Assembly: GCA_963706795.1 (NCBI GenBank)
Contig: OY970170.1
Span: 1,235,897-1,267,896, forward strand
Source of the DNA: Candidatus Saccharimonadota bacterium
GTDB lineage: Bacteria > Patescibacteriota > Gracilibacteria > BD1-5 > UBA2023
Length of the DNA: 32,000 nt
Direction: 5' to 3'
Shown piece by piece: positions 14,820 to 31,714 of this stretch (positions are counted from its first letter, which is position 1; every line of letters begins with the position of its first letter). The notes beneath the pieces are model-generated. The model did not search any database. It was given only the letters and a program-made list of their open reading frames with translations, and was not told the DNA's origin. The position numbers and the translations under genes are program-made.

Positions 14820-16949
14820 CTACGAAACTTCTTCTCATTCTGGTGGAGTATTTTTAGCATTCATGATCTTATGGATCCTATTCCCTACTATCGTTCCGAG
14901 GAGTTCTTTGTAGCGTTTTCTTTCGGGATTTACACGGGTCTTGCGACTTGGGAGAGCAGAATGAATAACAAGATCAAGTTTTTGCTCCTCGGTCATCGTC
15001 TTTTTGTAGTTCACCATATTGCGACTCGCGCGACAAGCAAAGGCGTCAATTCGGCCGTAAAAACCTGACTCTTCAGCTCGGATACGGAGATCATCCAGGG
15101 TTTGTCCACTATTCGTATTGTCATCGAAGATGAGTAGCCAGTTCTGATCTCGCATTTGATGCCTCGTATCATCATCAATAATAGACTTTTGCATGACCTC
15201 GGCGATGGGATAGTCAGCCAGCTTGAGGAATGAATTGGCATTTTTGACGTCATAGATCGAATAGACGATATTTCAGACATTCGCGAGCACCTGGCCACTA
15301 TTCACTGACTTCGAAAAAACGTATTTTGCATAGAGCCCAGTGAGCGCGCCACCATAGTTTACGCCCATGATATGCAGGACATCCTTTGTAGGCTTATAGC
15401 CCTTTTGGATAATCATATTAAGTGCATTTTGGGCAGTCTTGATCATCACGAGTGGATCGTTTTCTTCTCTATAGAGACGAATGATCTTTTTGAGTGCCTT
15501 CTCATGGACGATTGTATTTTGAGGCTTCGTCGTTTTTTGTTTCTTTTGAGCTCGCTTCTCGCCGTCAGCCACATAGCTGTCCATGAGCTTAAAATATGAC
15601 TCGAGGAGTTGTAAAATATCTACAAATTCAGCACGCATCATATCGGTTTTACCCGTGTTGATCTCAGGGAGTTTATTTGGGATTTCTCAAACAATCTTCA
15701 CATGTGCTATGTCGTTGTTTCAGAGCATTATATCCATCGAATACCCCACATGACTATCGAGCATACTCAATAAGGCATAATGTCAGTCTTCGTCTCATCG
15801 AAGAGTTTCCTGAAGCTTTTTAAACTCTGCAAATTCGTGCGGACTAGTACTCTTGATATGACGAACTTCATCGCGCTTAAACACGAGACTTCCCTCGTAG
15901 TCAGGATTAAGGAATTGCTCACTATAGAGAAGCTGAGCAGCATTCTGCATGAATGCCAGCATATTAATCTTCGCATCCAAAAGTCCGAGAAGAATCTTCT
16001 TCATCGACTTATGCGTGTTAATTTTTATATACTTGTTGAAGATCTTGTCTATATCAAGCGCAAAAGTCACCTTCGCATGCTGTAAAAGCAAACTTTGATT
16101 CGAGAGAAATTTGAGAATATGATGGAATAAATGCGCCGTCGGAGTCTTGGCAAAATCCTGGACCATATTACGAAGCTGCTCAAGACCTTGCAGTGTCTGG
16201 ATTCACTGCGTAGTAAAAAGATTGTCTAATTCTTGGTTTGAAGTTTGATTCTTTTTTTTGAGTTTCCGCTCCAAACGTCTCAGATCACCTGGAGCCAAAA
16301 GATTAAAAATATCCCGCGAGAAATCATCCAGATTATGCGTCAGCCCGTTCCAAAGCATCTCTTCGTAATAGGTGCTAAATAGTCGAATATTCTGATCGAT
16401 CGAATTATAGTGAGCCAGGAAATCATGCTTAAAACCATCCATATTTACATCGAGCACATCATGGTCATTGATCGACGAAAACCGCTCCTTGGTATCTACC
16501 AATACACTCGGAAACTGGAAATAGTATTTTTGGTTTCGAAATATGAGATTGCTGCCATGTTTATAGACAAAATCATTCTTGAGATTGAGCAAATACGCCT
16601 CATGAAGCCAATGAGATCACTCAATCGGGTTACCGTCCTTGTCTAGACTTACAAACAAACCTGTGAGCTCATTTATGTCCTCTTTGTTTAATTTGATAGC
16701 TCCATCTACATGGAAATATTCTTTAAGGAGTGAATTAATTTCATCACCTGCGAGAACATCCAATGAGCGCTGTTTTATATAATCAGTTATCCCTGTAAGC
16801 TTATTTTCAAAAGGAATACTGAGCTTTTTAATGCGCTCAGATTCACTCATTTCATCCTTGGAGAGCTCATCTGAGATTGCAAAGAGTACCTCAGGAGTGA
16901 GTTCTACACTTGGCTCGTCAGGAGATGAGACGATATGGAAATTTTTCAT
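14820..16949 (-). CDS. Large protein (709 aa) with C-terminal phosphoribosyltransferase-like domain; N-terminal about 450 aa of unknown family
   Basis: Track ORFs 16617..16949, 16203..16592, 15795..16166, 15273..15641 and 14835..15194 share one frame. The gaps contain only TGA (8 in total). PRT-type motifs 'HIMGVNYGGALTGLYAKYVF' and 'WLLIFDDNTNSGQTLDDL'. ATG 16949 (in-frame TAA upstream), TAG 14820-14822. Confidence 0.75.
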
Positions 16950-17078: not shown

Positions 17079-17119
17079 AACACGGACCATATTCACTCAG
17101 CGTAAATATGGTCCGTGTT
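17079..17119 (-). terminator. Intrinsic terminator closing the type I R-M / GNAT operon
   Basis: 14-bp perfect stem aacacggaccatat (17079-17092) / atatggtccgtgtt (17106-17119), 13-nt loop. On the minus strand it is followed by a T-rich run and lies 15 nt after the GNAT stop. Confidence 0.7.
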
Positions 17120-17133
17120 AATCGACAACATCA

Positions 17134-17604
17134 CTAGTGATCTCAAAGTTTCTTCCAAAACTCCACCGTCGTTTTCTGCATGCCAGCATCTAAATAAAAT
17201 CGCTGTGAAAGCTCATTTTCAAAATCTGTGTGGGTTGTGAGGTGATCACACCCTCTTGTTATTAATTCCTGTTCAAGAGCCTGAAAAAGCTTGCCTGCGA
17301 AGCCCTTACCTCGGAGATCAGATCTCACGAATACTTCATCCACATAACCGAGTTTGCAAAACCTATGGTTCTTGCGTTCATGAACCGATCACTGCACAAA
17401 TCAACCCACTTCATCGTTGTCAGTTATCGCCACAAATATAATCTCGTCATCAAGATCGGATTCCTTTAGTGGCAAATAAGGATTTACTCGCTCATGAAAA
17501 TCCTGATTTTCTTTAGAAAAAATCTGGGAGCGATAGAGATTGAGCTCATCCATGAGGAGCTGGATTCACTGGATGTCGAATTTGGTGGCTTTGCGGATGA
17601 GCAT
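17134..17604 (-). CDS. GNAT-family N-acetyltransferase
   Basis: 'MLIRKATKFDIQGIQLLMDEL...' and 'VDEVFVRSDLRGKGFAGKLFQALEQ' (acetyl-CoA motif A, R/Q-x-x-G-x-G/A). 4 in-frame TGAs. TAG 17134-17136. The start is 26 nt after the hsdR stop. Confidence 0.8.
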
Positions 17605-17630: not shown

Positions 17631-20600
17631 CTATTTTGAAAGCTCTTGAGCTAATAATTCGCTCTGTTCAATCACACGATCAGCCTCAATCTTTGCGAGG
17701 TCTGGTGGATACCCATAGCGCATGAGCACTTTTTTTACCGTGAGACGAAGTTGAGCGCGAACATCATCACGTTTGTTCCAGTCGACTGTAGCATTCTTTC
17801 GAATGATATCTACGATCATATGGATCAATTCCTTCATCTTATGATCCTCCAGAAATTCTGTCGATGTGTTCTGCGAAAGTATAGAATAAAATGCATATTC
17901 TTCGGGGGTGAGACCAATCTCCTTTGCTCGCATATCCTCAATCCTCATATCGCGTGCAATCTGTGAAAGTTCCTCGATAATCTGTGCTGTATCGAGTTGA
18001 TTGTTATGGTAACGCTTAATCACATTTCCAAGCATTTCAGAGAACTTTTTCCCTTGAGCAACATTCTTTTGTTTGCGAACCTTCACCTCCTCAGTGAGAA
18101 GTTTTTTAAGGAGTTCAAAAGCAAGATTTTTGTGCTCCATGTTTTTCACTTCTAATAGAAATTCCTCTGACAGAATCTCAAGTGAAGGAGCTTTGATTCC
18201 TGCTGCTTCAAAAATATCTACCACTCAATCCGAAGACAAAGCTTCTTCGACAATCTGTCGGATCGCCGTATTTACCTCTGCATCACTTTTTCAACCAGTA
18301 GGTGAGAATTTATTGATTCGTGATTTAATAGCCTGAAAGAAGGCAATATGATCCTTGATTTGTTCCGCCGCAACACTCGGTACAGCCATTACAAAGAGTT
18401 TTGAAAGCGCAGACACTTCAGCGAGGAATCGATTCTGTGTATCTTCACTTCGAAGGATGAAGTTTTGTGCAGCGAGCAACACATGAAGCTTCTTTCAGGT
18501 TTCAGCAGTGAAATACGACTGATAATCGAATCCGTGAAACATCTGAGAAACAATCTCGAATTTTGTTCGCATCCCAGCTATTACCTCCGCAATATCCAAT
18601 ACTGCTTGCCCCTGTCACCCATTGTCCGTATACGTCGACATCGCATTTCGCAGATCTTGTCCGATACCGATATAATCAACAATCAATCATCCTGGCTTAT
18701 CTTTGTAAACGCGGTTCACACGTGCAATTGCCTGCATAAGGTTTGCACCTTCCATTTTCTTGTCGATGTACATCGTATGGAGCGACGGTGCGTCAAATCC
18801 TGTCAGCCACATGGACTGTACGATCACGAGTTGCAGGGAATCATTCGGATCTTTGAGCCTAAGGGCTAATGCCTTGCGCTCATCCTTGGTAGTGTGATGT
18901 GGCTGGAAATCTTCAGGATCATCTGTTGAGCTCGTCATCACGATCTTCAAGAAACCCTTCGTAAGATCCTGATCATGCCATTCAGGTCTGAGTTTCACAA
19001 TCTCAGTATATAGGTTCACTGCGATCTGTCGTGTCATACACACGATCATCCCCTTTCCTTCGAAGATAGCCTGACGCGCTTCAAAGTGATCAACGATATC
19101 CTTCGCAATATCCCTCAATCTATCTGGATGCCCCACGATACTATCGATCTGTGCATTGCGTTTTTTTGCTTTCTCTTTCTGCTCAGGTGTTGCATCTTCG
19201 ATCTCATCGATCGCTATATCGATCTGAGCAACAGCCGCATCGTTCATCTTGATCTTCACAAGTCGACTCTCATAACTAATCGGCACAGTTGCGCCATCTT
19301 GAACCGCCTGTGCGATATCGTAGATATCCACATATCCACCAAATACTGCAGGTGTAGACTTATCTTCCTTCTCGATCGGAGTACCCGTGAATCCTATGAA
19401 AGAAGCCTGAGGAAGCGCATCTCTCATATACTTTGCATTCCCGTACTTGATCTCGCCATCAAGATCAACCTTTCCCGTGAAACCATACTGACTTCGATGC
19501 GCCTCATCTGCAACCACTACAACGTTTGAACGATCCGTAAGAACCTCGAAAGAATTCTGCCCATCTTCAGGATAGAATTTCTGAATTGTCGTGAAAATAA
19601 TCCCACCACCTGATACTTTGAGAAGCTCCTTCAAATGCGCACGATTATTCGCCTGGACTGGTTTTTGTCGCAGGAGGGAGACACAGTTCCCAAATGTTTG
19701 AAATAGCTGTTCATCGAGATCATTACGATCCGTGAGTATCACGATCGTAGGATTCTTCATCGCAGGTTCTACAACGAGTCTTCCAGCATAGAAGACCATG
19801 GAGAGTGACTTCCCAGATCATTGAGTATGCCACACAACCCCAATCTTCTTGTCACCATCTTCTGCAGTGGCACGCAAGGTTTCCTTCACTGCCTTCTCCA
19901 TCGCGTAATACTGATGATACGCAGCAACTTTTTTGATCTTGATTACAGAGAGCACTCCCGTTTCTTTATTCTTTACTTCTTCAGCTTCAAATACTGTATT
20001 GTATCTGATCAATTCGAGCAGAGTTTTCTTCTCGAACATTCGCTCCGCCAAGATCTGAAGCTCAGGCAATACCCCATTTTCCTTCTTCTCAGGTGATTTC
20101 CACACGAGATAACGTGAGAACGGTGCAGAGACACTCGACACTCGTGCATCGAGCCCGTCAGAGATCACGCAAAGTGCATTGTAATAGAACACAGAAGGAA
20201 CCGCCTTCTTGTAGTTCTGAATCTGTGTGAAAGCTCGCTCCAATGTAGCATCCTCATCCATTGTATTCTTGAGCTCAACCACGACAAGTGGGAGTCAATT
20301 CACAAACAACACAACATCCAGTCGCTTTTCATTGTTATTTTCCTTTACTACGAACTGATTCACCACACAGAAGTGGTTATTCTCTGGATTCACAAAATCC
20401 ACCAAGTTCACACTCACCCCCTTCGACTGCCCATCCGTGAAATACTCCACCACTACCCCATCCGTTAACATCTGATGAAATACCTCGTTGTTCATCATTA
20501 GATCATCCGAATCAAAGCGACGAATCTTTGAAAGTGCTTCGATTCGAGCAGATTCTGGGATGTGAGGATTGAGACGGTCGATAGATGTAGTTAGTACCGT

Positions 20601-20744
20601 ATCTAAAATAACGCCGTCAAAACTCGAACGCATAGGGGTTGAGCTGTATGGAGAGATATCTGGACCATAGAAATACTCGTAGCCCTGAGATTTGAGGAGA
20701 TCTACGAGGTTTTGTTCGATGGAAGATTCGGTAAGGTGGGGCAT
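17631..20744 (-). CDS. hsdR: Type I restriction enzyme, R subunit (1037 aa)
   Basis: Five track ORFs (20295..20744, 19818..20282, 18687..19799, 18291..18482, 17631..18224) share one frame. Joins: '[17 protein letters not shown]' (TGA 20295) and '[18 protein letters not shown]' (TGA 19818, helicase motif I). Also '[11 protein letters not shown]' (DEAH) and a C-terminal '[21 protein letters not shown]' region. 7 in-frame TGAs. TAG 17631-17633. Confidence 0.95.
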
Positions 20745-20748
20745 AGAC

Positions 20749-21300
20749 TTATATATGAAGTTCTTGAGGTAAGAATCTATTTATTTCATTATCTGACCAA
20801 GTAAATTCTTCATCTCTATTCTGTTTTCATAACAAAGATAACTGAGCCTCAGTGTAATCAGTATATGTTGTTTGTGAGGATAGTCAGACAATAATTTGAT
20901 ACTGTTCCTGATATAAATCTCTTCTTCAAATCGTTTCATCTTCGCTCAAACCACCTATAATATCAACTATAAAGTTTTTATATTTATCTCTCAAGTTTAG
21001 AAATTGCAGTGCAATTTTTTTAAACTCCTGTGCTCTTTGTTCTATAGAAAATTCTTTCTGGAGGAATAAGAAAATTATCTCAGAAACCGTTAATGCAACA
21101 GATACACCTCCAAAAATATTACTGTCTGGAAATTTAATCTGTAAAATAAGGAATACTAGAATCAAGAAAACATCAATGATGTTTACCCACTTAATCAATC
21201 ATTGAACTTTTTCTAGTCTATCACACGCTTTTTCATAAACCTTGTGATTAAAGACGCATTGAGCAAATTGCTGTCTTACCACTGAAAGATTTCTATTCAT
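20749..21300 (-). CDS. SLATT-like two-transmembrane effector protein (183 aa)
   Basis: ATG 21298-21300. N-terminal helix, two adjacent TM helices (LIKWVNIIDVFLILVFLILQI; IFGGVSVALTVSEIIFLFL), then a helical tail '...YTDYTEAQLSLLGKQNRDEEFTWSDNEINRFLP'. 4 in-frame TGAs. TAA 20749-20751, 4 nt before the hsdR ATG. The assignment rests on architecture plus the SMODS neighbour. Confidence 0.55.
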
Positions 21301-21311
21301 ATTTTAGAAGA

Positions 21312-22190
21312 TTATCATGTAAATTTTGATCAAAATATTTCCCTCCATTTTTGATTAGCAGAATATTCCTTTGCCTCCGATTCATACTGCATAGCCTCTA
21401 TCGCTAAGTTATATGCCAATTTTGCCTTGTACTCAAACTTTCATCCCCTCCATACGTACTGACCACTTCAAGGTGCAAGCCAGTAAGATTTATCCTCATC
21501 CTGTTCTTTAAGGAATTTAAAGAAATCCCTTACCATCCAATCATAATACAAATAAGATTTATCCTTTTGCGCCCAATTCTTCATAAAATGATAGCATAAT
21601 GTATCAATCAAAAGCCCTCACATTGGTACATTCCAATAATCTTTCCATACCCTAGTAATTCTGCATAGTCTTTTTAAATTAAAATTCCAGTCTTCATTCT
21701 TCTCCCTAATTTCCTTAATCTCAGGTTTTGGATTTGTCTTCTTCCAAGAACCTCAATCGTTTGAATCAGGAAAAGTATAACTATCGTCAGTTTTAATAAA
21801 GGCAGGTACTATTTCAAAACAGATTCAATCATTCCAGTTGATTCAAATAACTTGTCCATCCCCTTTTATATGTGTTGTAGGATATGTTTTCTGTAATGAT
21901 GATCTAATTGCTTGCAACAATGCAGACTGTCAGTTTCCAGTATAATTGTTATACGTTTCATACAGTGAATCTGGAAGTTGAAAAATTACATCAATGTCAC
22001 TTACATGTATGTCTGTATCTCTACCATAAGATCATACGTATAGACTATGGCTATATTCTGATTCTGTGGACCAAAAATCTTTATTTAATCTCTTTGTGAT
22101 AGATCTATAGCGTACTGAAATCGTATCTATATTATCAATATCGATACGAATATTATCGCAGAAATTTTCAAATTTAGTTGTAATAGACAT
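21312..22190 (-). CDS. SMODS / CD-NTase-like nucleotidyltransferase (292 aa)
   Basis: This is the only frame free of TAA/TAG across 21315..22193; I enumerated every tta/cta. 10 in-frame TGAs, so the track shows no ORF here. Pol-beta NTase core 'YVGSYGRDTDIHVSDIDVIFQLP', 'GICFEIVPAF', 'PDSNDGGSWKKTNPKPEIKEI', 'RLCRITRVWK'. ATG 22188-22190, TAA 21312-21314. Confidence 0.75.
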
Positions 22191-22203
22191 AGATTAACAA
22201 GAA

Positions 22204-23436
22204 CTAAATTAAAGATGGTAAAATTTCTCCGCTCATCAACCTTGGCAATAGCTCATCGCGAGTTCTCGAGAGCAATGCTACTTGAGCTAAGTTATTATAG
22301 ATTTTTCGAAAAATTGGCTTAACTTTCTCATCAAATCCCCTTACTCTCTCAATATTTGGAACAAGCACCTCAAGTTCTTTTATCATGGTCGAATTAATCG
22401 CTGTGACTATCGATGAAGTACTTCATAGTGAGTTGAAATCCAGTTTCTGAAGATAGCAATATATAAATTCGGTACTCAATGCAGAGTTGCCCTTGATTTT
22501 CAGGTGAGCAATTGCTTCATTTGAGAGCATCTCTTCGGTGGTAATCGTTAGTTTACCGACAGTCATTTTGAAACTCAATATCGTTGTATTGATAGGAATT
22601 ACTGAGATATTGAATTTCTTAATTGCCTCATCTATCAGATATTCTGAAGTTTCAAAAATATATGTTTTACTATTTCCGATATCCTTTATAGAAATCCACT
22701 TTTTCCCTGTTGGAGATTTTGAAAACCACTCCGGTTGAATACGAGGAGGAGTTCTTCAGATTGTAATATCAAACTCCGTCCCTAATTTTCCTACTCTCCA
22801 ACCCTCCGGCAACTCATCATCTACGCCATACTTCCCAAATAACTCCTGAAAAATTGTCTGCGCAGTTTTCTCAAGTGTCTCATTTTGCTCTCGAAGAAGT
22901 TCGATCTTATCATCGAAACTTGAAAGTATTTGAGCGATTGCTTGTTGTTCAGGGAGAGAAGGAAGAAGAATAGGATATTCAGTAATTTGTCTCTGGCTTA
23001 TATGCGGGATAGATGTTCCAGTATGAACCTTTGCTACATAGGATTCAAAATTCTTATTTAGAATGAGATGTGCTATGAAATGCTGATCTGAGATTCATGG
23101 TTTCCTTCTTAAACATGCTACTCGCTGAGCCAATATTAGTGGCAGTTCTTTTTCTTGAACCATAGACCTATTTTTTCCAACCTTTGATCCATCCATTCAA
23201 ATTACTATGTCATCTTTTTGTAAGAAACACTTTTCCAATCCATCCGTAGAATGATTCCAATACTTCACAATATCCCATCTAAGAAATCATTCCGAGACAT
23301 TTTCTCATCTTACGACTCTCAAATTTCAATTCGAATCATATAAATTTCACTTGAATGATTCTCACGTAAAAATATCCACAACCTTCCCCAAAGTCGTCTC
23401 CATCCACCCTTCAGGAATCATTTTTTCATTTCTCAT
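22204..23436 (-). CDS. hsdS: Type I restriction enzyme, S (specificity) subunit (410 aa)
   Basis: The frame is open from 23496 to TAG 22204, with 9 in-frame TGAs. 'IPEGWMETTLGKVVDIFTG', 'LAQRVACLRRK', 'HTGTSIPHISQRQI', central 'LPEQQAIAQILSSFDDKIELLREQNETLEKTAQTIFQELF', second TRD 'LPEGWRVGKLG...', C-terminal 'RTRDELLPRLMSGEI'. Confidence 0.9.
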
Positions 23437-23437
23437 A

Positions 23438-23908
23438 CTACTTTTGAGGATTACTCATTTGATTAAGTACGCTATCCACCGCCTTTCATGGTAAGTTTAT
23501 ATCTCCTGTGTTAGTTCATGGAGTGTTTACTTTCTCAGCAATGTTCTCATAATCTGGCGTAACTTTATAATTTCCTCGATTACTCCTATAAAGCTTCCAA
23601 TTCTGTGCCCATTCAATCGCAGTATCTCGGAAACTTTTGTCTATCTTACCGTAATTTACAAGTGTCTCTGAGCCTCAAAATCAGATAGTCATAAATGTTA
23701 CGAGATAGGCCACAGTAATCACCCCGACTTTGTTCTTAAACCATTCAACTTTTGTAGTCAGAAGATATGTCAGAAAAACGAGCAAACAAGCGATTCCGAT
23801 TGCTATAAGCCAGAAGATGATCGTGAATACCGCATAAATAATCACCGCGAGGATTACAATTCCTATCACTCATTGTTCTACGAATCTTTCTTTTCATTTT
23901 CGACCCAT
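23438..23908 (-). CDS. Small membrane protein (156 aa; 2 N-terminal TM helices plus soluble tail), unknown function
   Basis: Track ORF 23681..23869 extends to ATG 23906-23908 and through TGAs (23681, 23675, 23516, 23486) to TAG 23438-23440, 1 nt before the hsdS ATG. Confidence 0.55.
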
Positions 23909-23952: not shown

Positions 23953-25089
23953 TTATTTCTCCAGGATATCAAAATAAGACCTAAATACGAAGAGTCGATT
24001 TCTTTTGTTGCCAGTGATTTCCACAAGTATGCCAAGCTTCACAAAATCTTGTATGAGATCGTTTGTCGCTTTTGGGGAGAGATCTGTAATCAATTGCACG
24101 TTTCGCGAAGATACGATGGGCTTCTCGAAAAGTTTCTCAAGCAAGGTATGTGCGCTTTGCATCTTCCTTCCAAGAGTGGGAAGTGAATTTTTGGTATGAT
24201 AGTCTTTCAGATCTAGGACTGCCTTGAGCGAAAGCGTTGCTTCATTTGCAGTTTGTTCCACTCACTCAAGGAAGAAAAGCACCCAAGAGAGAAGATCGTT
24301 TTTCTCTCTAACCCAGGTGAGCTTGTCGTAGTAGAGGGATTTGTTCTTTTCGAAGAAATCAGATACATACAAGAGTGGTCTATGGAGTATACCGTTACTT
24401 ACTAGATAGAGCGGTATCATGAGTCTCCCAGTTCTGCCGTTCCCATCGAGAAATGGGTGTATAGTCTCGAACTGATAGTGAGCTATGGCAATCTTTATGA
24501 GATGAGGAAGTCACACGGCGTCATTATGGAGGAATTTCTCTAGATCAGACATGAGATCACTTACGTGTTCTTGACTCGGGGGTATAAATTTTGCATCAGA
24601 CAGACCCGCACCGCCAATCCAATTTTGACTCGTTCTGAATTCTCAGGGACTCTTATCCCTTCCTCGCACATGAGAGAGAAGGATCTTGTGGATTGATTTA
24701 ATCAAGCGGTTTGAGAGTGGGATATTCTCAAGTTCTTCGATAGCAAAATTGAGAGATTCACGATATTGAATAGTTTCCCTCCAGTCATCCCGTTTTTCTG
24801 GTTGGATATCTCATTCATCAGAAAAAGCCTCTTCAATATTGGTTTTTGTTCCCTCTATTCGGCTTGATGTGACCGCTTCCTTCATGACATATGATTGAAG
24901 GAAAAGTTCGATATTTGGGACAAATTTTGAAAAGGAATTGAGCTCACCAAGCTTAAATGATGCGGATTCAAGTTTCTTCTGAAGAAGAGGATGTGAAAAA
25001 GTCCATTCATGATTTATGGTTTCAGGAAGGAAGTACTTATACTGATAAGCATTTCTCCAAACTCCAGATGTAAAGGTCTCGATCTGCAT
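23953..25089 (-). CDS. Fic/DOC family protein (378 aa)
   Basis: Track ORFs 24811..25089 and 23953..24261 are in frame. The translated gap contains the Fic motif '[12 protein letters not shown]', preceded by '[14 protein letters not shown]'. N-terminal Fic_N-like 'SSRIEGTKT', wHTH-like C-terminus. 4 in-frame TGAs. TAA 23953-23955. Confidence 0.9.
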
Positions 25090-25175: not shown

Positions 25176-26690
25176 CTAAAGCTCAAATCCTATCTTCGCA
25201 AGCTGTCTTTTGATCTCTTCATCGAGTTCTTTCTCTCGTGCCATCTGCTCACCGAGCTTAGTGGTGAGTTCTTTCATCTTTACTTCAAATGGAATCCCAT
25301 CGTCAACTGCGTCTACAATCCCAACATATCGACCTGGAGTAAGTACAAATCCATGTTTCTCGATGTCAGCGAGGCTTGCAGACTTACAATATCCTTTCTG
25401 ATCTTCGTAGGTATTCCCTTTTCTCCAGTTGTGATACGTTTCAGCGATCTTATTCATATGATCTTCGGAGAGATCTCTATGAACACGATCCTTCATATAT
25501 CCCATCTCAGAAGCATCGATGAAAAGCGTTTCACCTTTGCGCTCTGTTCTCTCACGTCGGAGAAACCAGATACAGGCTGGGATACCAGTATTGTAGAAAA
25601 GTTGTTTTGGAAGCGCGACGATACAGTCTACGAGGTCTGCAAGGACGAGCTTTTTGCGGATTTCTCCTTCTCCACTTGTATTAGATGAGAGTGAACCGTT
25701 AGCAAGAACGGTCGCCATGACTCCATGAGGCGCAAGGTGGTAAAGCATATGTTGAATCCATCCGAAATTCGCATTCCCTGAGGGTGGAACTCCGTATTTC
25801 CAGCGCGCATCGTCTTGGAGGATATCGACTCCCCACTCTGATTGATTGAAGGGCGGATTTGCGATGATAAAGTCAGCCTTGAGATCAGGATGCTCATCAC
25901 GAAGAAAAGAGCCCTCTGTATTCCAACGCACAAACTGCGAGTTGATATTACGGATTGCTAGATTCATCTTTGAGAGTTTCCAGGTTGTTTGGTTACTCTC
26001 TTGGCCGTAGATAGTGATATCTTTGATATTTCCCTGGTGTTCTTTGATGAATTTCTCACTCATTATGAACATACCACCGGAACCACAGGCTGGGTCGTAA
26101 ACACGTCCTTTGTATGGCTCGATCATCTCGACCATGAGTTTAACAATGGCTTTTGGCGTGTAAAACTGACCACCCTTTTTTCCTTCGGCATTTGCGAATT
26201 CACCGAGGAAATATTCATAAACTCGACCGAGGAGGTCTTTTGTATTGGCATTTGCAGCCTTGAGTTCGATGTCAGAGATTACGTCGATAAGTTCACCTAG
26301 AGAGGTTTTGTCGAGATTGGGCTTACCGTAGACTTTGGATAGTACATTGCGAAGCTCCGAGTTCTCTTTCTCTATGGACTCCATCGCATCGTCGAGATCC
26401 ACTCCAATCGTTGGAAGTTTTGCTCGTGCATGGAGTGTTTTCCAACGAGCATTTTCTGGCACGAAGAATACATTTTTTGCCTTGTACTCATCACGGTCCT
26501 CTGGATCAGAAAATTCATCTGCCTCAAGTTCGTCGTAGAGCTCTTGAAAACTATCAGAAATATACTTGAGGAAGACAAGTCCAAGAACGACGTTTTTGTA
26601 TTCTGCTGCGTCGATGTTTTTACGAAGCTTGTCAGCAGTCTTGAAGAGTTGTGCTTCGAAATTATTATTGGCTTGATTCTGCGCTGCCAT
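25176..26690 (-). CDS. hsdM: Type I restriction enzyme, M (N6-adenine methyltransferase) subunit (504 aa)
   Basis: Intact in the track. 'VVLGLVFLKYISDSF' (HsdM_N), 'GQFYTPKAIVKLMVEMI', 'VYDPACGSGGMF' (SAM motif I), 'FIIANPPFN' (motif IV NPPF). TAG stop. No in-frame TGA at all. Confidence 0.95.
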   Translation of the reverse strand: MAAQNQANNNFEAQLFKTADKLRKNIDAAEYKNVVLGLVFLKYISDSFQELYDELEADEFSDPEDRDEYKAKNVFFVPENARWKTLHARAKLPTIGVDLDDAMESIEKENSELRNVLSKVYGKPNLDKTSLGELIDVISDIELKAANANTKDLLGRVYEYFLGEFANAEGKKGGQFYTPKAIVKLMVEMIEPYKGRVYDPACGSGGMFIMSEKFIKEHQGNIKDITIYGQESNQTTWKLSKMNLAIRNINSQFVRWNTEGSFLRDEHPDLKADFIIANPPFNQSEWGVDILQDDARWKYGVPPSGNANFGWIQHMLYHLAPHGVMATVLANGSLSSNTSGEGEIRKKLVLADLVDCIVALPKQLFYNTGIPACIWFLRRERTERKGETLFIDASEMGYMKDRVHRDLSEDHMNKIAETYHNWRKGNTYEDQKGYCKSASLADIEKHGFVLTPGRYVGIVDAVDDGIPFEVKMKELTTKLGEQMAREKELDEEIKRQLAKIGFEL

Positions 26691-26805: not shown

Positions 26806-27456
26806 TTATGGGGTTACAGAATTTAATTCATTTCTTCTTATAAAATAGATATACATCCTAGTTCATAGCATAGTGAGTTCTTGGTGAGTTCTTACTAGTT
26901 CGAATTTTGAGTATTCAGAACTATCAAAGAAAGCTTGTATATCTTCAATAGAATATTTGTCTCTCTGAAAACTTACTTTCTCGGGGTAAATTGCAAAAAC
27001 AACACTCATCTTATAAACAGCATCAGTACTACTAACTTTCTTTAATCCGATTTTGGCATTTAGAACATCAGCTGCATCTTGTCACTTATTGTTTTTCACA
27101 TCCCTTATTGCTCTAAGGGACACGGCTCATTGAGAAAAAAGTTCTCTCAATTTTGATCAGGTACATTTCTTCACATGCACAAATTGACTCGTTTTCTCAA
27201 TAAACAAATCACATATTTCCAAACCATTTAATGTAAGTGATTGGTCATGAGAATCACCAAGATCTAAACAGTGATATCAAGCTTTATGAAGAACTGGATG
27301 ACTAGAATCAACATAGAATGCATCCGACTTATCATGAACAGCATTAAATGCAGCTTCATTATGAGTCCACCTGTATCAACCCACTGTACTATTTATTTTA
27401 TCTATAGTTGATTCCCATGGGTTCAAGAAATCATCCTTCAAGGGGCAATACCTCTT
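26806..27456 (-). CDS. C-terminal fragment of a PD-(D/E)xK-like, TIGR04141/DUF6119-like protein (frameshifted relative to 27402..28763)
   Basis: The frame is open from 27456 to TAA 26806-26808 with no ATG near its top. 'HCLDLGDSHDQSLTLNGLEICDLFIEKTSQFVHVKKCTGSKLRELFSQGAVSLRAI' gives a D...E-x-K nuclease-like core. The 'HVK...LxxLFxQGxxS' signature is one I associate with TIGR04141. 6 in-frame TGAs. Confidence 0.55.
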
Positions 27457-28763
27457 TTAAATAAATTTGAGAACTCCTCTTCTACACAGGTAAATAGATC
27501 GGCATTGGGCTCGTAAAAAGCCTCTCAGTACTTGAAATATCGACCATGGGGATTCTCAAGCAAAATTTCACCCTCAATAAGTTCTTCAAATGTAAGTCGC
27601 ACAGAGTCATCCTTGGATCAATCATTATAACTGATGAGTAACTCAAGATTTTTTATAGAGGTAAGATTCGGGAAATCTCGAAGATTAATTTTAACGGCAT
27701 CATCGATAATGAGATCAATTGAATCGAATTCAATTCAATCACTTTGATCACAGGTATCTCTAATTATCGCGTTATTAAAAACATATTCATTCTCTATCAT
27801 GTTCTCTCGTAATTCTTCAAGAGTCGAAACTGATATACTAAAATCACTCAATCCTTTTTCCAAAACACGCTTATTCAGTTCCACTAGAAGCAATCTATGT
27901 AATGCGGAATCTTCTGGCACTCTCAGCAGTTCCGGTATTTTTAATCAATCAAGCACATTTACATCATACCAATAAATCCGATCGATAATCTCAGTTAGTA
28001 ATTGACGATCAATTTTTTCAATTTTTAGCTGCAAAGACTCAGTTCCTGTAGCACTAAATGCAAGTCTTCTGTATTCTTTTCTAGAACTGTTTCTAGGATT
28101 AAAGTTTGAGTCTTCGTGGAAAAATTTACTGAGATTTACTTTTCAGATGAGCTCTTTTAGTACTCTTGTTGCATTTGTAAAATCTTCTGAAGGCCTATAT
28201 TTTGTTTTTCAATTCGACTTAAAAGTTCTCATTATTTCATCCAACAAGTTACCACTTCCACCAGTTTCTTTTTGAAAACTACGTCGTAAGTCGCCATCTT
28301 CGGATATAAGCTTTTTTGTCATTTCAATTCAGAATCTCTCTTCAAAAATATCTCGTAAGTATTGAAATCCTCTTCCGAAAGAAATCAGGTAGTATTCTCA
28401 CCCAATATGGAATCCACCAATTATCCCCTTATTTATAGTCTTATACTCAGATGAAATTTCCTCAAAATCATCTTCAAGACCTACTAGCTTAAGAAAATTG
28501 AACCAGGACTCCTTTTCGATAATCTCTGTACCTTCATGCTTCATCCAGGCAAATAAACAATACCTAGCACTAGATGACGTATGAAGCTGCAGAGGACGCC
28601 ACTCTTTTACAATCTGTGTACCTCCAGTACTAGCACTTGTATTAGATAGTAATCCAGCATTCTCTAGTTTCCCCTGAACTGTCTTAAACAATTTCTCTTC
28701 GTCCTTTAAGTTACTTTTTACCTTGTAAATCCTAAGCTCACTAATGAATGTTGACTGAGACAT
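27402..28763 (-). CDS. N-terminal fragment (453 codons) of the same TIGR04141-like gene
   Basis: Track ORFs 28398..28763 and 27735..27920 share a frame. There is no TAA/TAG in that frame until TAG 27402-27404. ATG at 28761-28763. The last about 17 codons overlap the open top of the 26806..27456 frame. Confidence 0.55.
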
Positions 28764-28847: not shown

Positions 28848-28924
28848 TGGTGGACCGGGAGGGGCTCGAACCCTCGACCTAAAGATTAAGAGTCTTCCGC
28901 TCTAACCAACTGAGCTACCGATCC
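28848..28924 (-). tRNA. tRNA-Lys (anticodon CUU), CCA encoded
   Basis: Minus-strand read: GGATCGG-TA-GCTC-AGTTGGTTA-GAGC-G-GAAGA-CTCTTAA-TCTTT-AGGTC-GAGGG-TTCGAGC-CCCTC-CCGGTCC-A-CCA. 7-bp acceptor stem (one G-U), T-loop TTCGAGC, 7-nt anticodon loop with CTT at positions 34-36. Confidence 0.9.
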
Positions 28925-28997
28925 AAGGTGATGTGCTTGCGACATAGGCTCACAAAGCTCGCGAAATATATCGAAAAAAAGTGCGAAATCAAATCTT

Positions 28998-29717
28998 TTA
29001 TGGAGAAGATTGCTTTCCGCGGAGGAGTGAGAGAATAACGCGGTCAATCTGGTACTTGGTGATAGCGTTAGTGGAGGCGATATCGGTGATGGCTTTGGCG
29101 AGGATATCAAAGAAATCTGGGGGCAATTCTCCTGTGCGACGGCGGGCGGTGTCTTGGAGGGCGAAGAGGAGCTCGAGGGCTTCGTCGCGCTTGAATGTTT
29201 TGGTTGCGTAGTATTCGGCGATGGCGGGCTTGGAGAGGGTGATGAGGCCGAGGGCAAGCTCACGGGTATCAGGGCTGATATCGCGGGCAACATCGGTGAT
29301 CTCGAGGAATTGGACGCGTGAGGCTATGGTTTCGAGGAGGGCTTCGCGGGACTCGAGGGTGAGGAGGATGAGTGTGCGAGCAGGGACATCTTCAAATGTT
29401 TTGAGGAGGGCGTTGGCAGCTTCTTTGCTCATTTCGTCGACTTGGGAGACGATGATTACTTGGTAGGGGCCAGATGAGCGAATAGTTGCTCGGGTGATGA
29501 TTTCACGGACTTCTTCGACTTTGTAGGAGTCTTCGCGTGGGGCAAAAAAGGCGATGTCGGGGTGGGCAATCTCGGGAAGTTCTTCAAAAAATACTCGATG
29601 ATTAAAGAGTACTTGGATGATTTTTTCGGTCTGGGACTCGCTTACGACGATGGGTGCGACAGAGCCACCTGCTGTGAAGCGGTCGAGGACGGATGCGAGA
29701 CTTGGAGAGAGTGACAA
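28998..29717 (-). CDS. holB: DNA polymerase III delta-prime (HolB)-like clamp-loader subunit
   Basis: 'EAANALLKTFEDVPARTLILLTLESREALLETIASRVQFLEI' matches the clamp-loader sensor-1/SRC region. TTG start at 29715-29717 (in-frame TAG just upstream), TAA 28998-29000. Visibly GC-richer than the island; no in-frame TGA. Confidence 0.75.
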   Translation of the reverse strand: MSLSPSLASVLDRFTAGGSVAPIVVSESQTEKIIQVLFNHRVFFEELPEIAHPDIAFFAPREDSYKVEEVREIITRATIRSSGPYQVIIVSQVDEMSKEAANALLKTFEDVPARTLILLTLESREALLETIASRVQFLEITDVARDISPDTRELALGLITLSKPAIAEYYATKTFKRDEALELLFALQDTARRRTGELPPDFFDILAKAITDIASTNAITKYQIDRVILSLLRGKQSSP

Positions 29718-29741
29718 ATTGGGCTTTATTTCGGACTATTT

Positions 29742-30869
29742 GTGCCTATTCTATGGCAAACATCGCCCGTGAAAAGTCTCATTTCTTTGTATATCGAATA
29801 TCAGGCCCAGATTATTGCTCTGTCGGCAGTTTTTTTGGCGCTTATTTTGTGGAGGTTTTCGTTTGTGCGAAGGATTGGATATTTCTTTGCCAACCTTCCA
29901 AACAAGCTTTTGGCATTACTGATGCTGTTAGTGCTCGTGCCGGCAATTGGTGGAGCATTGTATTATATCTTTGCGCTGAATACTGGATCACTTGAAGTGC
30001 AGGTTTCTGGAGGCTCGGATGTGACTATCGGGTTGAAGCGATCTGATGTAAATGCATTTGAGCGGGTCTGTGCGGATATTTGTCGATTTGAGAATATTCC
30101 CGCCGGAAGCTACGATGTTATGTATTCCTGATCTGGCATTGTCGAGACGCGAGAAGTTGCCACCATCAAGCGTGGTGAAAATCTCAGGATTTCATTTGTG
30201 CCCGCCGGTAAAATCGCCCTGGAGCCAACGGATCGAGTCACCGCAACTGGCAGTGTGAGTGATGATGACAACTACGTCTTTGCTGGAGCATTCCGTGGGA
30301 AAAACTACAATATCAAACTCTCCCCTTTTGGTTTTGGAGAAGCGAGTGGCAGCGGACAAAATACGCTCTATGAGGCAAATTGACTCGTTGGATATCTGAC
30401 AGGATCAATTCAATATGGATATTTTGTAACGACTACAGCGGACAAAAATCTCCATGTGCTCGATCTTGTTTCGCTTGCGGTCCATGATTTTGGTTCGCCG
30501 GATGAGAGTGTCGCGCTCAGTATCAAATCGACTGGTAAAAAAGATATGGCTGTGCTCGAGACCAAATCTTGATCTTATCTCGTAAATCTCGGTGATAATA
30601 CGCTCACTCCCCTTGCGCTCTATGATGACCTCGCTCTCAGTGCGCGCGGGACACTCATCGGGCTTGTGCGCGGAGAAAGCGCGACAAAAAGATCGCTCCT
30701 TAATCTCGATACGAGATCATGAGACATCCTCATCGATACAACACGTATAGATAGTAAGCGAGTACTGATGGACGGACTCTCGGCGATTGCGCATATCCAC
30801 ACGATTGGTGGCAAATTTATGGTCGAATATATCGACGGAAGCTGGGCAAATCTTAATGGAATCAATTAA
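29742..30869 (+). CDS. Membrane-anchored protein with beta-rich extracytoplasmic region (375 aa), unknown function
   Basis: Track ORFs 29742..30131 and 30198..30383 are in frame. Reading through TGAs at 30129, 30381, 30570 and 30720 reaches TAA 30867-30869. Two N-terminal TM helices. GTG start at 29742 is uncertain. The stop overlaps the next ATG (TAATG). Confidence 0.6.
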
Positions 30870-31714
30870 TGGCAACCAAAAAAGTCTACTGGAACACGAT
30901 TGCACAAATTGGTGGGAAGATCTCAACGGCGCTCATCTCGATCTTCCTCGTCAAGATCCTGACGAACTATCTCGATCTCGAGGGCTACGGACTCTATTCA
31001 AAGATATATAATTATCTCTCAATCTTTTCGGTAATTGCGGATCTTGGGCTCTATACAGTGACTGTTCGAGAGATTTCAGCCCACAAAGACGATCCCGAAA
31101 AAGTCCGAAATATCGCCGGAAATATCCTCACGCTCCGCACTGGAATGGGACTTGCGATCATCGTGCTTTCACTCGCGATGGGACTCATATTGCCAGGATA
31201 CAACTCAAAAGTCGCACTGATTGGAATTTTGATCGCGGGGATTTTTACACTCTTTGGGCTCGTAAATAGCTCGATCATGTCGATGCTTCAGGCCTATCTT
31301 AAGACGGAGTTTTCATTTATTTCGACTACTGCTGGTAAGGTTGTAAATCTCTTGGGAGTGCTCGCCGTGGTCTTTATGATCTTACCGAGACCCTTCCCTG
31401 CTGTAAACGAATCGATTGCCTTTGCCTTGATCATGGTGGCGGGACTCCTTGGAAATATCGTGATGACTGCGATGGTGTATTGGTATAGTCTGAAGGTCGA
31501 AAAAGTCGGATTTCGATTTGATCCGGTATTTATGAAGTCGATCCTGCGTTCGTCTCTGCCATACGGGCTCGCACTTCGCATCATTAACACCATTTGTTCT
31601 TTCTCATATTCGGTATATTTTCCATGAGCGGCTTTATTTCTTAGATCAAGCCACGCAGTGGCTGACTTTTGATCCAATTTTGTGTATACATATGTGCCAT
31701 CAGTAGCTGATTAA
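30869..31714 (+). CDS. MOP/Wzx-family polysaccharide flippase, apparently 3'-truncated (about 236 of an expected 400+ aa)
   Basis: 'MATKKVYWNTIAQIGGKISTALISIFLVKILTNYL...' with multiple TM helices up to '...ILRSSLPYGLAL'. After about 31577 the sequence loses TM character, crosses TGA 31625 and stops at TAA 31712-31714. Composition also changes there. Confidence 0.6.

What the first reader, a model, noticed from the sequence alone, without database searches (positions are those of the whole stretch)
20749..22190. Hidden CBASS-like pair: SMODS nucleotidyltransferase plus SLATT-like 2TM effector, nested between hsdS and hsdR
Frame analysis of 21304-22203 leaves exactly one minus-strand frame free of TAA/TAG. 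It encodes a 292-aa protein with a pol-beta NTase core (GS...SDIDV...FEIVPAF, 'GGSWKKTNP') typical of SMODS/CD-NTase second-messenger synthases. It contains 10 in-frame TGA codons. Eleven nt downstream starts a 183-aa protein with an N-terminal helix, two adjacent TM helices and a helical tail. That is the architecture of SLATT pore-type effectors, which partner with SMODS. A minimal nucleotide-signalling abortive-infection module in an ultra-small, alternative-code CPR genome, physically embedded in an R-M operon, would be a new context. It raises the question of what signal activates the cyclase.
Basis: partly seen in the sequence, partly recalled or inferred. Interest (0 to 1): 0.85.

Follow-up and report, generated by a model that had tools for sequence, protein, structure and literature searches.

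The report
CBASS defence pair inside restriction operon
Two genes hidden by an unusual genetic code (TGA read as glycine) form an ordinary minimal CBASS anti-phage suicide module, and its position inside a restriction-modification operon turns out to be a recurrent habit of this gene lineage, not a one-off.

Summary
With TGA read as Gly, 21312-22190(-) encodes a 292-aa protein with 10 in-frame TGA. It matches Pfam SMODS (E=4e-51) and a PADLOC CBASS cyclase model end to end (E=7e-139). Eleven nt downstream, 20749-21300(-) encodes a 183-aa protein that matches SLATT_4 (E=2e-24) and has two adjacent TM helices. The catalytic G53-S54, D65xD67 and E126 are invariant in the aligned homologues, and eight of the ten TGA codons fall on columns that are Gly in at least 30 of 33 standard-code homologues.

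The pair is a type I CBASS, packed 13/11/4 nt between hsdS and hsdR in one operon: hsdM-SoFic-ORF-hsdS-SMODS-SLATT-hsdR-GNAT.

It is not a new context. Relatives occur in at least 410 species genomes, always with a ~169-218-aa ORF immediately downstream (two hydrophobic segments in 71 of 84 loci). A standard-code Patescibacteria genome carries the same operon. In a quick tree, the window's sublineage lies inside at least 9 different type I R-M backbones and one type II system.

Function is inferred: cyclic-nucleotide synthesis, SLATT membrane disruption, abortive infection. The trigger is unknown. Verdict: a new member of a known kind, of modest interest. The persistent R-M residence leaves room for a PrrC-like guardian role.

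The parts
21312..22190 (-). CD-NTase / SMODS cyclase gene: 292 aa, 10 TGA=Gly codons, TAA stop at 21312-21314.
   Evidence: Pfam SMODS PF18144 E=4.4e-51, covering profile positions 1-164 of 164. PADLOC Cyclase PDLC00786 E=7e-139 over 1-291. G53-S54, D65xD67 and E126 are invariant in 36 aligned family members. TGA positions fall on Gly columns. A 74%-identical proxy folds as a CD-NTase, TM 0.78 to PaCdnD 6P82.
20749..21300 (-). SLATT_4 two-TM effector gene: 183 aa, 4 TGA codons. It starts 11 nt after the cyclase stop and ends 4 nt before the hsdR ATG.
   Evidence: Pfam SLATT_4 PF18186 E=1.6e-24, 86.9 bits against a cut-off of 27. PADLOC 2TM effector PDLC00696 E=1.1e-31. Hydrophobic helices at about 35-57 and 61-80. 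A 66%-identical proxy is all-helical with pLDDT 90.7.
22204..23436 (-). hsdS, the type I R-M specificity subunit. Its stop lies 13 nt before the cyclase ATG.
   Evidence: Pfam Methylase_S, two stretches, E=3.2e-28; sequence.
17631..20744 (-). hsdR, the type I restriction endonuclease/translocase, full length (1037 aa).
   Evidence: Pfam HSDR_N, SWI2_SNF2, T1R_D3-like and T1RH-like_C. PADLOC REase_I at 1176.7 bits, end to end.
25176..26690 (-). hsdM, the type I R-M methyltransferase and first gene of the operon. None of its Gly codons is TGA.
   Evidence: Pfam N6_Mtase E=1.3e-111 plus HsdM_N; TGA count 0 of 35.
23953..25089 (-). Fic-domain gene of the SoFic defence family, embedded between hsdM and hsdS.
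   Evidence: PADLOC SoFic PDLC03963 E=3e-118 end to end. Pfam Fic_N + Fic. Motif [12 protein letters not shown].
23438..23908 (-). 156-aa membrane ORF of unknown function between Fic and hsdS. It abuts the hsdS start.
   Evidence: Open only with TGA as sense (6 TGA). No Pfam or PADLOC hit. Found elsewhere only in the same-sample contig L001.
17134..17604 (-). GNAT acetyltransferase gene, last gene before the terminator.
   Evidence: Pfam Acetyltransf_1 E=2e-13.
17079..17119 (-). Terminator-like hairpin with an 18-bp stem that closes the hsdM..hsdR-GNAT transcription unit.
   Evidence: No terminator-like site on the minus strand within the SMODS-SLATT cassette or any hsd junction; the only other minus-strand matches are two weak 6-bp stems (3-4 GC pairs) inside hsdR.

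Best explanation
This is a type I (two-gene) CBASS abortive-infection module. It consists of a compact clade-D-like CD-NTase (SMODS) and a SLATT_4 two-TM effector, and it sits as a promoter-less cassette inside a type I R-M operon that also carries a SoFic gene.

Shown here: both genes are intact when TGA is read as Gly. The catalytic GS / DxD / E residues are conserved. The NTase is followed by a downstream ORF of about 169-218 aa in every related locus with complete downstream sequence, and a simple hydropathy scan finds two hydrophobic segments in 71 of those 84. The pair is packed with gaps of 13, 11 and 4 nt between hsdS and hsdR, with no internal terminator.

Inferred from family knowledge: during infection the NTase is switched on by an unknown cue and makes a cyclic oligonucleotide. 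The nucleotide binds the cytoplasmic helical tail of the SLATT protein (predicted N-in/C-in hairpin). The SLATT protein then oligomerises and breaches the membrane, killing or arresting the cell before phage release.

The R-M enzyme is the first line of defence. The CBASS and SoFic genes are independent second lines that are co-transcribed and co-inherited with it. The cassette belongs to a sublineage that habitually resides in R-M operons.
For: - **Family matches:** SMODS 4.4e-51, PADLOC cyclase 7e-139, SLATT_4 1.6e-24, PADLOC 2TM effector 1.1e-31.
- **Catalytic residues:** invariant in 36 family members. They align with the PaCdnD DxD (mutated to NxN in 6P8J) and the third acidic residue.
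- **Profile against PDB sequences:** PaCdnD E=5e-16 over the full length.
- **Fold:** the AF2 model of a 74%-identical, indel-free proxy gives only bacterial CD-NTases in the top 50 PDB fold hits, the best at TM 0.78.
- **Pairing:** 84 of 84 related loci with complete downstream sequence have a 169-218-aa ORF directly downstream; the hydropathy scan finds two hydrophobic segments in 71, one in 11 and four in 2.
- **Spread:** relatives occur in at least 410 species genomes.
- **Type I assignment:** no Cap2/Cap3, HORMA/Trip13 or other accessory domains in the neighbouring genes.
- **Operon structure:**
- **Recurrent R-M embedding:**
- **Experimental precedent:** anti-phage activity of type I CBASS with SLATT effectors (PMC11381338; EcCdnF04-SLATT6 in 10.1101/2023.05.21.541620).
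Against: - No biochemical or phenotypic data exist for this pair or, as far as I found, for any SMODS + SLATT_4 member of this sublineage.
- SLATT_4 has no solved structure and no fold match. The best PDB fold hit is E=0.5 and the best sequence hit E=0.56. Ligand binding and pore formation are therefore predictions.
- NCBIfam's CBASS cyclase equivalog models score below their cut-offs (106.8 bits against 200).
- The third acidic residue is Glu rather than the Asp of the characterised enzymes, although this is family-wide.
- The trigger is unknown.
Confidence: 0.75

Rival explanations
1. R-M guardian, analogous to PrrC. The embedded CBASS is functionally wired to the type I R-M complex. The NTase would be held inactive by, or would read out the state of, HsdM/S/R, and would fire when a phage anti-restriction protein disables the enzyme.
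For: In a quick NJ tree, the R-M-embedded loci fall into three clades, and every member with enough flanking sequence is embedded. All other clades with full flanks are not embedded: 6 of 6 against 0 of 38. The NTase stays 58-74% identical while the surrounding HsdR ranges from 24 to 73%, so the cassette has entered or been kept in at least 9 different R-M backbones, plus one type II system. Gaps or overlaps to the hsd genes are mostly 0-26 nt. The position between hsdS and hsdR is, from my memory, the same as that of prrC in the EcoprrI locus. The PrrC precedent is summarised in PMC12707154. No intrinsic sensor is visible: there is no AGS-C domain and no large activation loop.
Against: Relatives that are 57-68% identical are standalone or integrase-adjacent (L007, L012, L093), so the pair can exist without R-M. 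Insertion points vary (after hsdM, after hsdS, after other cargo). Embedding is common for many unrelated defence genes and can be explained by co-regulation and co-mobility. There is no evidence of a protein-protein interface. The clade pattern rests on a quick NJ tree and on non-independent lineages.
Confidence: 0.12
2. Inverse (Panoptes-like) signalling. The NTase is constitutively active, its nucleotide keeps the SLATT toxin off, and phage nucleotide sponges or nucleases release the toxin.
For: The system has two genes and no sensor, with a membrane effector. That architecture is the same as mCpol-2TMbeta, where this logic was demonstrated (PMC12657230). The NTase is compact and lacks regulatory insertions.
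Against: Panoptes uses a Cas10-like mCpol and a beta-barrel 2TM effector, not SMODS/SLATT. Tested SMODS-based type I CBASS operons, including SLATT6 ones, behave as classical activate-on-infection systems. The window carries no second CBASS that such a system would guard.
Confidence: 0.06
3. The pair is an inactive or decaying remnant, or it has a non-defence signalling role.
For: The composition is atypical (GC3 0.24-0.28 against 0.44 in hsdM/hsdR), which suggests foreign origin. There are no expression data.
Against: Both frames are intact under code 25 with no frameshifts or indels relative to homologues. All invariant family residues are retained. TGA codons sit on Gly columns. Tight operon packing means hsdR expression runs through the pair. 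The neighbours are all defence genes.
Confidence: 0.05

Closest known systems
Type I CBASS with transmembrane effectors (minimal CD-NTase + Cap operons; e.g. EcCdnF04-SLATT6, EcCdnD12-4TM; 10.1101/2023.05.21.541620)
   Same: It is a two-gene operon of a SMODS-type CD-NTase followed by a small TM effector, with no Cap2/3 or HORMA/Trip13 accessory genes. Type I operons most often pair clade D/E/F enzymes with 2- or 4-TM effectors.
   Different: The effector here is SLATT_4, not SLATT_6, Cap15 or a 4TM protein. The NTase is a compact 292-aa enzyme without AGS-C. The host uses TGA=Gly. The operon has no promoter region of its own and lies inside hsdS-hsdR.
Lactococcal plasmid type I CBASS pUCCL631_167/168 (PMC11381338)
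   Same: It has the same effector Pfam family (SLATT_4, PF18186; 190 aa), and its anti-phage activity was confirmed experimentally.
   Different: Its cyclase is a 408-aa NTase with an AGS-C domain whose best structural match is CdnB 7LJO. The gene order is effector then cyclase in locus-tag order. It is plasmid-borne and not R-M embedded.
Pseudomonas aeruginosa CdnD (PDB 6P82/6P8J/6P8U; clade D, PMC8096243)
   Same: It is the closest solved structure by both sequence and fold: profile E=5e-16 end to end, fold TM 0.78, similar length (about 300 aa).
   Different: Identity is only about 20%. PaCdnD belongs to a HORMA/Trip13-regulated (type III) CBASS, and no such genes are present here. The third catalytic acidic residue is Asp in PaCdnD and Glu here.
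PrrC anticodon nuclease in the EcoprrI type Ic R-M locus (PMC12707154)
   Same: It is an abortive-infection effector encoded inside a type I R-M operon. By my memory of the prrA-B-C-D order, it occupies the same hsdS|hsdR position.
   Different: The protein is unrelated (ABC-ATPase/tRNA nuclease). Physical and functional coupling to the R-M enzyme is demonstrated for PrrC and untested here.
Defence genes 'embedded' in type I R-M, BREX and DISARM (Payne et al. 2024 preprint, 10.1101/2024.01.29.577857)
   Same: It describes the general phenomenon of cargo defence genes nested within multi-gene defence operons, including type I R-M.
   Different: That paper's main text does not mention CBASS (0 occurrences). 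The lineage-specific residence of a SMODS-SLATT_4 clade in R-M operons is my observation from about 90 loci and not a published result that I could find.
Panoptes (mCpol + 2TM-beta; PMC12657230, PMC12657218)
   Same: It is a two-gene nucleotide cyclase plus membrane effector system.
   Different: The cyclase fold differs (Cas10 palm against pol-beta NTase), and so does the effector (beta-barrel against all-helical SLATT). The inhibitory signalling logic is demonstrated there and is only a rival hypothesis here.

Membership tests
CD-NTase / SMODS (CBASS cyclase) | Significant match to the SMODS/CD-NTase family model above the curated threshold | tested here: met
   Pfam PF18144 scores 173.8 bits against a cut-off of 26.5, over the full profile. 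PADLOC cyclase PDLC00786 E=7e-139. The NCBIfam CBASS_cyclase_b equivalog is below its cut-off (106.8 against 200), so the protein is not an equivalog of those specific models.
CD-NTase / SMODS (CBASS cyclase) | Pol-beta NTase catalytic signature G-S ... [DE]x[DE] ... [DE] | tested here: met
   G53-S54, D65-I-D67 and E126 are invariant in 36 aligned members. They align to the PaCdnD DxD and third acidic residue. The third residue is Glu, not Asp.
CD-NTase / SMODS (CBASS cyclase) | cGAS/DncV-like bilobed fold with a C-terminal helical lobe | tested here: met
   The AF2 model of proxy P0003 (74% identical, no internal indels, pLDDT 81) gives bacterial CD-NTases for all top-50 PDB hits, the best being PaCdnD at TM 0.78, E=3e-11. 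This was tested on a proxy, not on the window protein itself.
CD-NTase / SMODS (CBASS cyclase) | Synthesis of a cyclic di- or tri-nucleotide second messenger | not testable with these tools
   This needs enzyme assays or LC-MS.
Type I CBASS | Cyclase and effector adjacent and co-oriented, conserved as a pair across genomes | tested here: met
   The gap is 11 nt. In 84 of 84 related loci with complete downstream sequence an ORF of 169-218 aa follows directly, with two hydrophobic segments in 71 of them.
Type I CBASS | Absence of Cap2/Cap3 (E1/E2/JAB), HORMA/Trip13 and type IV accessory genes | tested here: met
   Pfam and PADLOC scans of all genes from 14.8 to 28.8 kb show only hsdM/S/R, SoFic, GNAT, DUF6119 and two unknown ORFs.
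Type I CBASS | Anti-phage protection by abortive infection | not testable with these tools
   This is known for other type I CBASS with SLATT effectors and is untested for this sublineage.
SLATT_4 effector | Match to the SLATT_4 model above the curated threshold | tested here: met
   PF18186 scores 86.9 bits against a cut-off of 27. NCBIfam SLATT_4 scores 72.6 against 55. PADLOC 2TM effector E=1.1e-31.
SLATT_4 effector | Two adjacent TM helices forming a hairpin, with a helical soluble region | tested here: met
   Kyte-Doolittle windows above 1.6 lie at about 35-57 and 61-80. The proxy AF2 model (pLDDT 90.7) has helices 3-57, 63-84, 87-116, 121-141 and 147-158. K/R-rich flanks suggest an N-in/C-in topology (inference).
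SLATT_4 effector | Nucleotide-triggered oligomerisation and membrane permeabilisation | not testable with these tools
   There is no solved homologue and no recognisable nucleotide-binding domain. This is prediction only.
Protease-tripwire CD-NTases (clade A/G and some D; PMC12991175) | A surface-exposed disordered activation loop of about 30 aa in the centre of the enzyme | tested here: not met
   The proxy model has no long disordered insertion. The only segment with pLDDT below 50 is residues 54-64, and the total length is 290-292 aa. Loop definition.
Type I restriction-modification system (host operon) | Complete hsdM, hsdS and hsdR in one co-oriented cluster | tested here: met
   N6_Mtase + HsdM_N; Methylase_S x2; HSDR_N + SWI2_SNF2 + T1R_D3-like + T1RH-like_C.
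PrrC-type R-M guardian | Physical or functional dependence of the embedded effector on the R-M complex | not testable with these tools
   Only the genomic association was tested, and it is strong and lineage-specific. Standalone relatives exist.

The most novel reading that the evidence does not exclude
The SMODS-SLATT_4 sublineage to which this pair belongs would be a dedicated resident of R-M operons that acts as a nucleotide-signalling guardian of restriction. In this reading its cyclase, which has no visible sensor, is activated when the co-encoded type I R-M complex is inhibited or overwhelmed, by PrrC-like logic carried out through a CBASS pathway. That would answer, for this clade, the open question of what switches on a sensor-less type I CD-NTase.
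Probability: 0.12. Interest if true: 0.7.

Novelty: new member of a known kind. Interest (0 to 1): 0.3.

Why it matters
There are three points of practical and modest conceptual value.

1. **Annotation.** Standard-code or code-4 gene calling of TGA=Gly genomes hides or corrupts defence genes. The public calls for this organism truncate proteins at TGA or put Trp at all 10 Gly positions. Defensome surveys of Gracilibacteria/Absconditabacteria-type genomes will therefore under-count systems such as CBASS.

2. **Defence load.** A genome of roughly 1.3 Mb spends about 9.6 kb on one operon that stacks three defence layers: type I R-M, SoFic and CBASS.

3. **R-M residence.** The comparative result is that one CBASS sublineage is found again and again inside different R-M operons. 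This gives a concrete, testable case for asking whether embedding is only co-regulation and hitch-hiking or reflects functional coupling.

None of this changes what CBASS is understood to be.

Tried and rejected
- **Structure prediction of the window's own proteins:** I used 74%- and 66%-identical proxies from the syntenic Patescibacteria locus instead.
- **SLATT_4 against PDB, by sequence and by fold:** nothing significant, so the effector mechanism gets no structural support.
- **att-like direct repeats around the cassette or island (16.5-29.2 kb):** only short chance-level matches. There is no integrase in the window, so no insertion mechanism was identified despite the adjacent tRNA-Lys.
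- **Promoter scan:** fewer sigma-70-like sites than in shuffled sequence (21 against 33 +/- 6.5). No internal promoter can be claimed.
- **Protease-activated 'tripwire' model (PMC12991175):** considered and rejected, because the enzyme lacks the large disordered loop.
- **HORMA/Trip13 regulation, as for the closest structure PaCdnD:** rejected, because no such genes are nearby.
- **Code 4 (TGA=Trp):** rejected, because the TGA columns are Gly and never Trp in standard-code homologues.
- **A gene pool restricted to recoded genomes:** not supported, because the nearest relatives (73-74%) are in standard-code genomes.
- **Exact taxon:** not resolved. Named relatives of a housekeeping ABC protein are only 63-67% identical (Peregrinibacteria, Gracilibacteria and others). 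The genome-contig scan did not return the source genome among its best 80 loci.
- **Papers not held:** Burroughs et al. 2015 and Richmond-Buccola et al. 2024 could not be read.
Full report
**1. The observation**

The window uses TGA as a sense codon. With TAA/TAG as the only stops, long frames appear throughout. Examples are a 1,050-codon open frame holding hsdR (1,037 aa from its ATG, 7 TGA) and a 1,081-codon frame (12 TGA).

TGA fills the Walker-A glycine of HsdR (HTQ-G-SGKS) and the conserved 'VNGLPL' glycine. This matches NCBI table 25, which from established knowledge is assigned to SR1/Absconditabacteria and Gracilibacteria.

Under that code:
- 21312-22190(-) is a 292-codon gene with 10 TGA.
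- 20749-21300(-) is a 183-codon gene with 4 TGA, starting 11 nt downstream.
- In an alignment with 33 standard-code homologues, 8 of the 10 TGA positions are Gly in at least 30 of 33 sequences. The other two are Gly in the plurality, and none is Trp.
- Two database entries of the same family (P0001, P0039) carry Trp at such columns because they were translated with code 4.

**2. What the two genes are**

The 292-aa protein:
- It matches Pfam SMODS over the whole model (E=4.4e-51) and a PADLOC CBASS cyclase model end to end (E=7e-139).
- NCBIfam CBASS cyclase equivalogs are hit but below their cut-offs.
- G53-S54, D65xD67 and E126 are invariant across 36 family members. They align with the catalytic residues of P. 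aeruginosa CdnD. The third acidic residue is Glu throughout this family.
- A family profile finds PaCdnD (6P82/6P8J/6P8U; clade D per PMC8096243) end to end at E=5e-16.
- The tool would not accept code-25 translations, so I modelled P0003. It is 74% identical, has no internal indels, and comes from a syntenic operon.
- That model has pLDDT 81. All 50 best PDB fold matches are bacterial CD-NTases, with PaCdnD best at TM 0.78.

The 183-aa protein:
- It matches SLATT_4 (E=1.6e-24) and a PADLOC CBASS '2TM' effector model (1.1e-31).
- It has two adjacent hydrophobic helices at about 35-57 and 61-80.
- Its 66%-identical proxy is confidently all-helical (pLDDT 90.7).
- No solved structure resembles it by sequence or fold.

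No Cap2/3, HORMA/Trip13 or other accessory genes lie nearby. The pair is therefore a type I CBASS.

**3. Surroundings**

The genes on the minus strand run in this order:
- hsdM (25176-26690)
- a Fic gene that matches the SoFic defence model end to end (3e-118; 23953-25089)
- a 156-aa membrane ORF with no family (23438-23908)
- hsdS (22204-23436)
- SMODS
- SLATT_4
- a complete hsdR (17631-20744)
- a GNAT gene (17134-17604)
- an 18-bp-stem terminator-like hairpin (17119-17079)

The gaps are 13 nt (hsdS to SMODS), 11 nt (SMODS to SLATT) and 4 nt (SLATT to hsdR). No terminator-like site on the minus strand lies within the cassette or at any hsd junction; two weak 6-bp matches lie inside hsdR. Promoter-like sites are not enriched.

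The simplest reading is a single polycistron in which hsdR expression runs through the CBASS genes. Upstream of hsdM lie a DUF6119 gene and tRNA-Lys(CTT). No integrase or att-like repeat was found.

**4. Relatives and context**

The NTase has 6,637 database homologues and relatives in at least 410 GTDB species genomes across many phyla. It also occurs, more distantly (60% identity or less), on 29 IMG/VR viral contigs.

In all 84 loci with complete downstream sequence, a 169-218-aa ORF follows directly; the hydropathy scan finds two hydrophobic segments in 71, one in 11 and four in 2. The pair is therefore a conserved unit.

The R-M nesting is not unique:
- A standard-code, 25%-GC Patescibacteria MAG (GCA_021734125.1) has hsdM-Fic-ORF-ORF-hsdS-SMODS-SLATT_4-hsdR. 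Identities to the window are HsdM 79%, HsdR 73%, NTase 74% and SLATT 66%, and its NTase has no in-frame TGA.
- Seven other close relatives (66-73% identity) were examined through gene calls:

| Protein | Context |
|---|---|
| P0002 | hsdM-hsdS-pair-hsdR |
| P0039 (another recoded genome) | RhuM/Fic-hsdM-pair-ORF-AAA_13-hsdR |
| P0010 | hsdM-RhuM/Fic-hsdS-SMODS-SMODS+AGS_C-SLATT-hsdR |
| P0035 | hsdM-hsdS-HATPase-pair-hsdR |
| P0018 | hsdM-pair-hsdS |
| P0007 | NgoPII-like REase remnant-pair-C5 methylase (type II) |
| P0109 | integrase-adjacent, not in an R-M operon |

- Among GTDB loci with full flanks, 6 of 44 are flanked on both sides by co-oriented hsd genes.
- On a quick NJ tree, these and the shorter embedded loci fall into three clades whose informative members are all embedded. 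No member of the other clades is embedded.
- Within the embedded clades the NTase stays 58-74% identical to the window's, while HsdR ranges from 24 to 73% and HsdM from 27 to 79%. The cassette is therefore not co-diverging with one R-M system. It recurs in at least 9 different backbones.

Caveats: the tree is crude, the lineages are not independent, and hsd detection was by tblastn.

**5. Composition**

- TGA supplies 56% (10/18) of Gly codons in SMODS and 50% (4/8) in SLATT. The window average is 19%, and hsdM has 0/35. Fisher tests give p=6e-5 for the pair and p=6e-4 for hsdM.
- GC3 is 0.24-0.28 in the pair against 0.44-0.45 in hsdM and hsdR.
- The operon is therefore mosaic. The cassette, with hsdS and the membrane ORF, looks as if it has a longer or different history in a lower-GC TGA=Gly background than the hsdM/hsdR frame.
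- An inference I could not test: the conserved hsdM and hsdR flanks may serve as recombination anchors for swapping hsdS plus cargo.

**6. Mechanism**

Shown here:
- The genes are intact.
- The catalytic residues are conserved.
- The NTase has a CD-NTase fold (tested on a proxy).
- The cyclase-effector pairing is conserved across genomes.
- The pair is packed tightly inside the operon.

Inferred from family knowledge:
- On infection the NTase makes a cyclic oligonucleotide.
- The nucleotide binds the cytoplasmic helical tail of the SLATT hairpin (N-in/C-in, judged from the K/R-rich flanks).
- The SLATT protein then oligomerises and collapses the membrane, aborting the infection.

Experimental precedent: type I CBASS operons with SLATT effectors protect against phage. 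These are the lactococcal NTase-AGS-C + SLATT_4 system (PMC11381338) and EcCdnF04-SLATT6 (10.1101/2023.05.21.541620).

The trigger is unknown. The recently described protease-cleaved activation loop (PMC12991175) is absent from the model. No AGS-C domain or HORMA partner is present.

Two rivals remain open:
- A PrrC-like guardian of the R-M enzyme. It is supported only by the persistent embedding. It is weakened by standalone relatives and by the generality of embedding.
- Panoptes-like inhibitory signalling (PMC12657230).

**7. Comparison and novelty**

- The pair fits the existing class 'type I CBASS with a 2TM/SLATT effector' and hits PADLOC's existing models end to end.
- NCBI already labels homologues in Patescibacteria as 'nucleotidyltransferase' and 'SLATT domain-containing protein'.
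- CPR defensomes have been surveyed (PMC12259885).
- Embedding in type I R-M is a described phenomenon.
- No held paper mentions CBASS together with Gracilibacteria.
- The public gene calls for this organism (a 1,267,896-bp contig) appear to use the wrong code. An ABC protein is cut at its TGA, and P0001 carries Trp at every TGA position. The 'hidden' label is fair.

This is a new member of a known kind, and its interest is modest. The most useful by-product is the lineage-specific residence of this CBASS clade in R-M operons, which is testable.

Noticed in passing
window 23953-25089 (-): The Fic gene between hsdM and hsdS matches the PADLOC SoFic defence model end to end (E=3e-118) and keeps the [12 protein letters not shown] motif. 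The R-M operon therefore carries two embedded defence modules, SoFic and CBASS. Fic or RhuM/Fic genes recur at the same place in related operons (L002, L085, L090/91, L063).
   Followed up: partly
window 25176-26690 (-) versus 20749-23908 (-): hsdM uses TGA for 0 of 35 Gly codons (p=6e-4). SMODS, SLATT, hsdS and the membrane ORF use it for 35-56%, against a window mean of 19%. GC3 is 0.24-0.36 in these genes and 0.44 in hsdM. The operon is compositionally mosaic, which suggests that cargo plus hsdS was exchanged within a conserved hsdM/hsdR frame.
   Followed up: partly
window 28848-28924 (-) and 27402-28763 (-): tRNA-Lys(CTT) and a DUF6119 gene (10 TGA codons) lie immediately upstream of the R-M operon. 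This could be a genomic-island boundary, but no integrase or att-like repeat was found.
   Followed up: partly
window 23438-23908 (-): A 156-aa ORF with several hydrophobic helices and 6 TGA codons has no Pfam or PADLOC family. It was found only in the same-sample contig L001. The syntenic Patescibacteria operon has two unrelated ORFs (150 and 238 aa) at this position.
   Followed up: no
source contig (public record; proteins P0200, P0201, P0001): The window's hsdM is on a 1,267,896-bp contig held by NCBI, ENA and Logan. The ABC transporter call there stops at its TGA (344 aa), and a Logan call of the NTase has Trp at all 10 TGA positions. Public annotations of this organism appear to use code 11 or code 4 instead of code 25.
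   Followed up: partly
L090 8001-11730 and L091 8001-10706: Two otherwise syntenic metagenomic contigs carry hsdS-SMODS(292 aa)-SMODS+AGS_C(~440 aa)-effector-hsdR. One has SLATT_6 plus two extra ORFs, and the other has SLATT_4. This shows tandem cyclases and effector swapping inside an R-M operon.
   Followed up: no
L088 7788-10500 (Sulfuricurvum MAG): A 71%-identical SMODS-SLATT_4 pair sits between a 65-aa NgoPII-like restriction-enzyme remnant and a C5 DNA methylase. This is embedding in a type II R-M system whose nuclease may have been disrupted.
   Followed up: no
window 14820-16949 (-): A 709-aa ORF (8 TGA) downstream of the operon's terminator has no Pfam or PADLOC match.
   Followed up: no
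window 28886-31244: This is the GC-richest stretch of the window (0.51) and has a strong GC skew. It contains overlapping long open frames on both strands. Same-sample gene calls (L087) place a DNA pol III delta'-like gene on the minus strand (about 28998-29717) and fragments of a plus-strand gene. The gene model here is unresolved.
   Followed up: no
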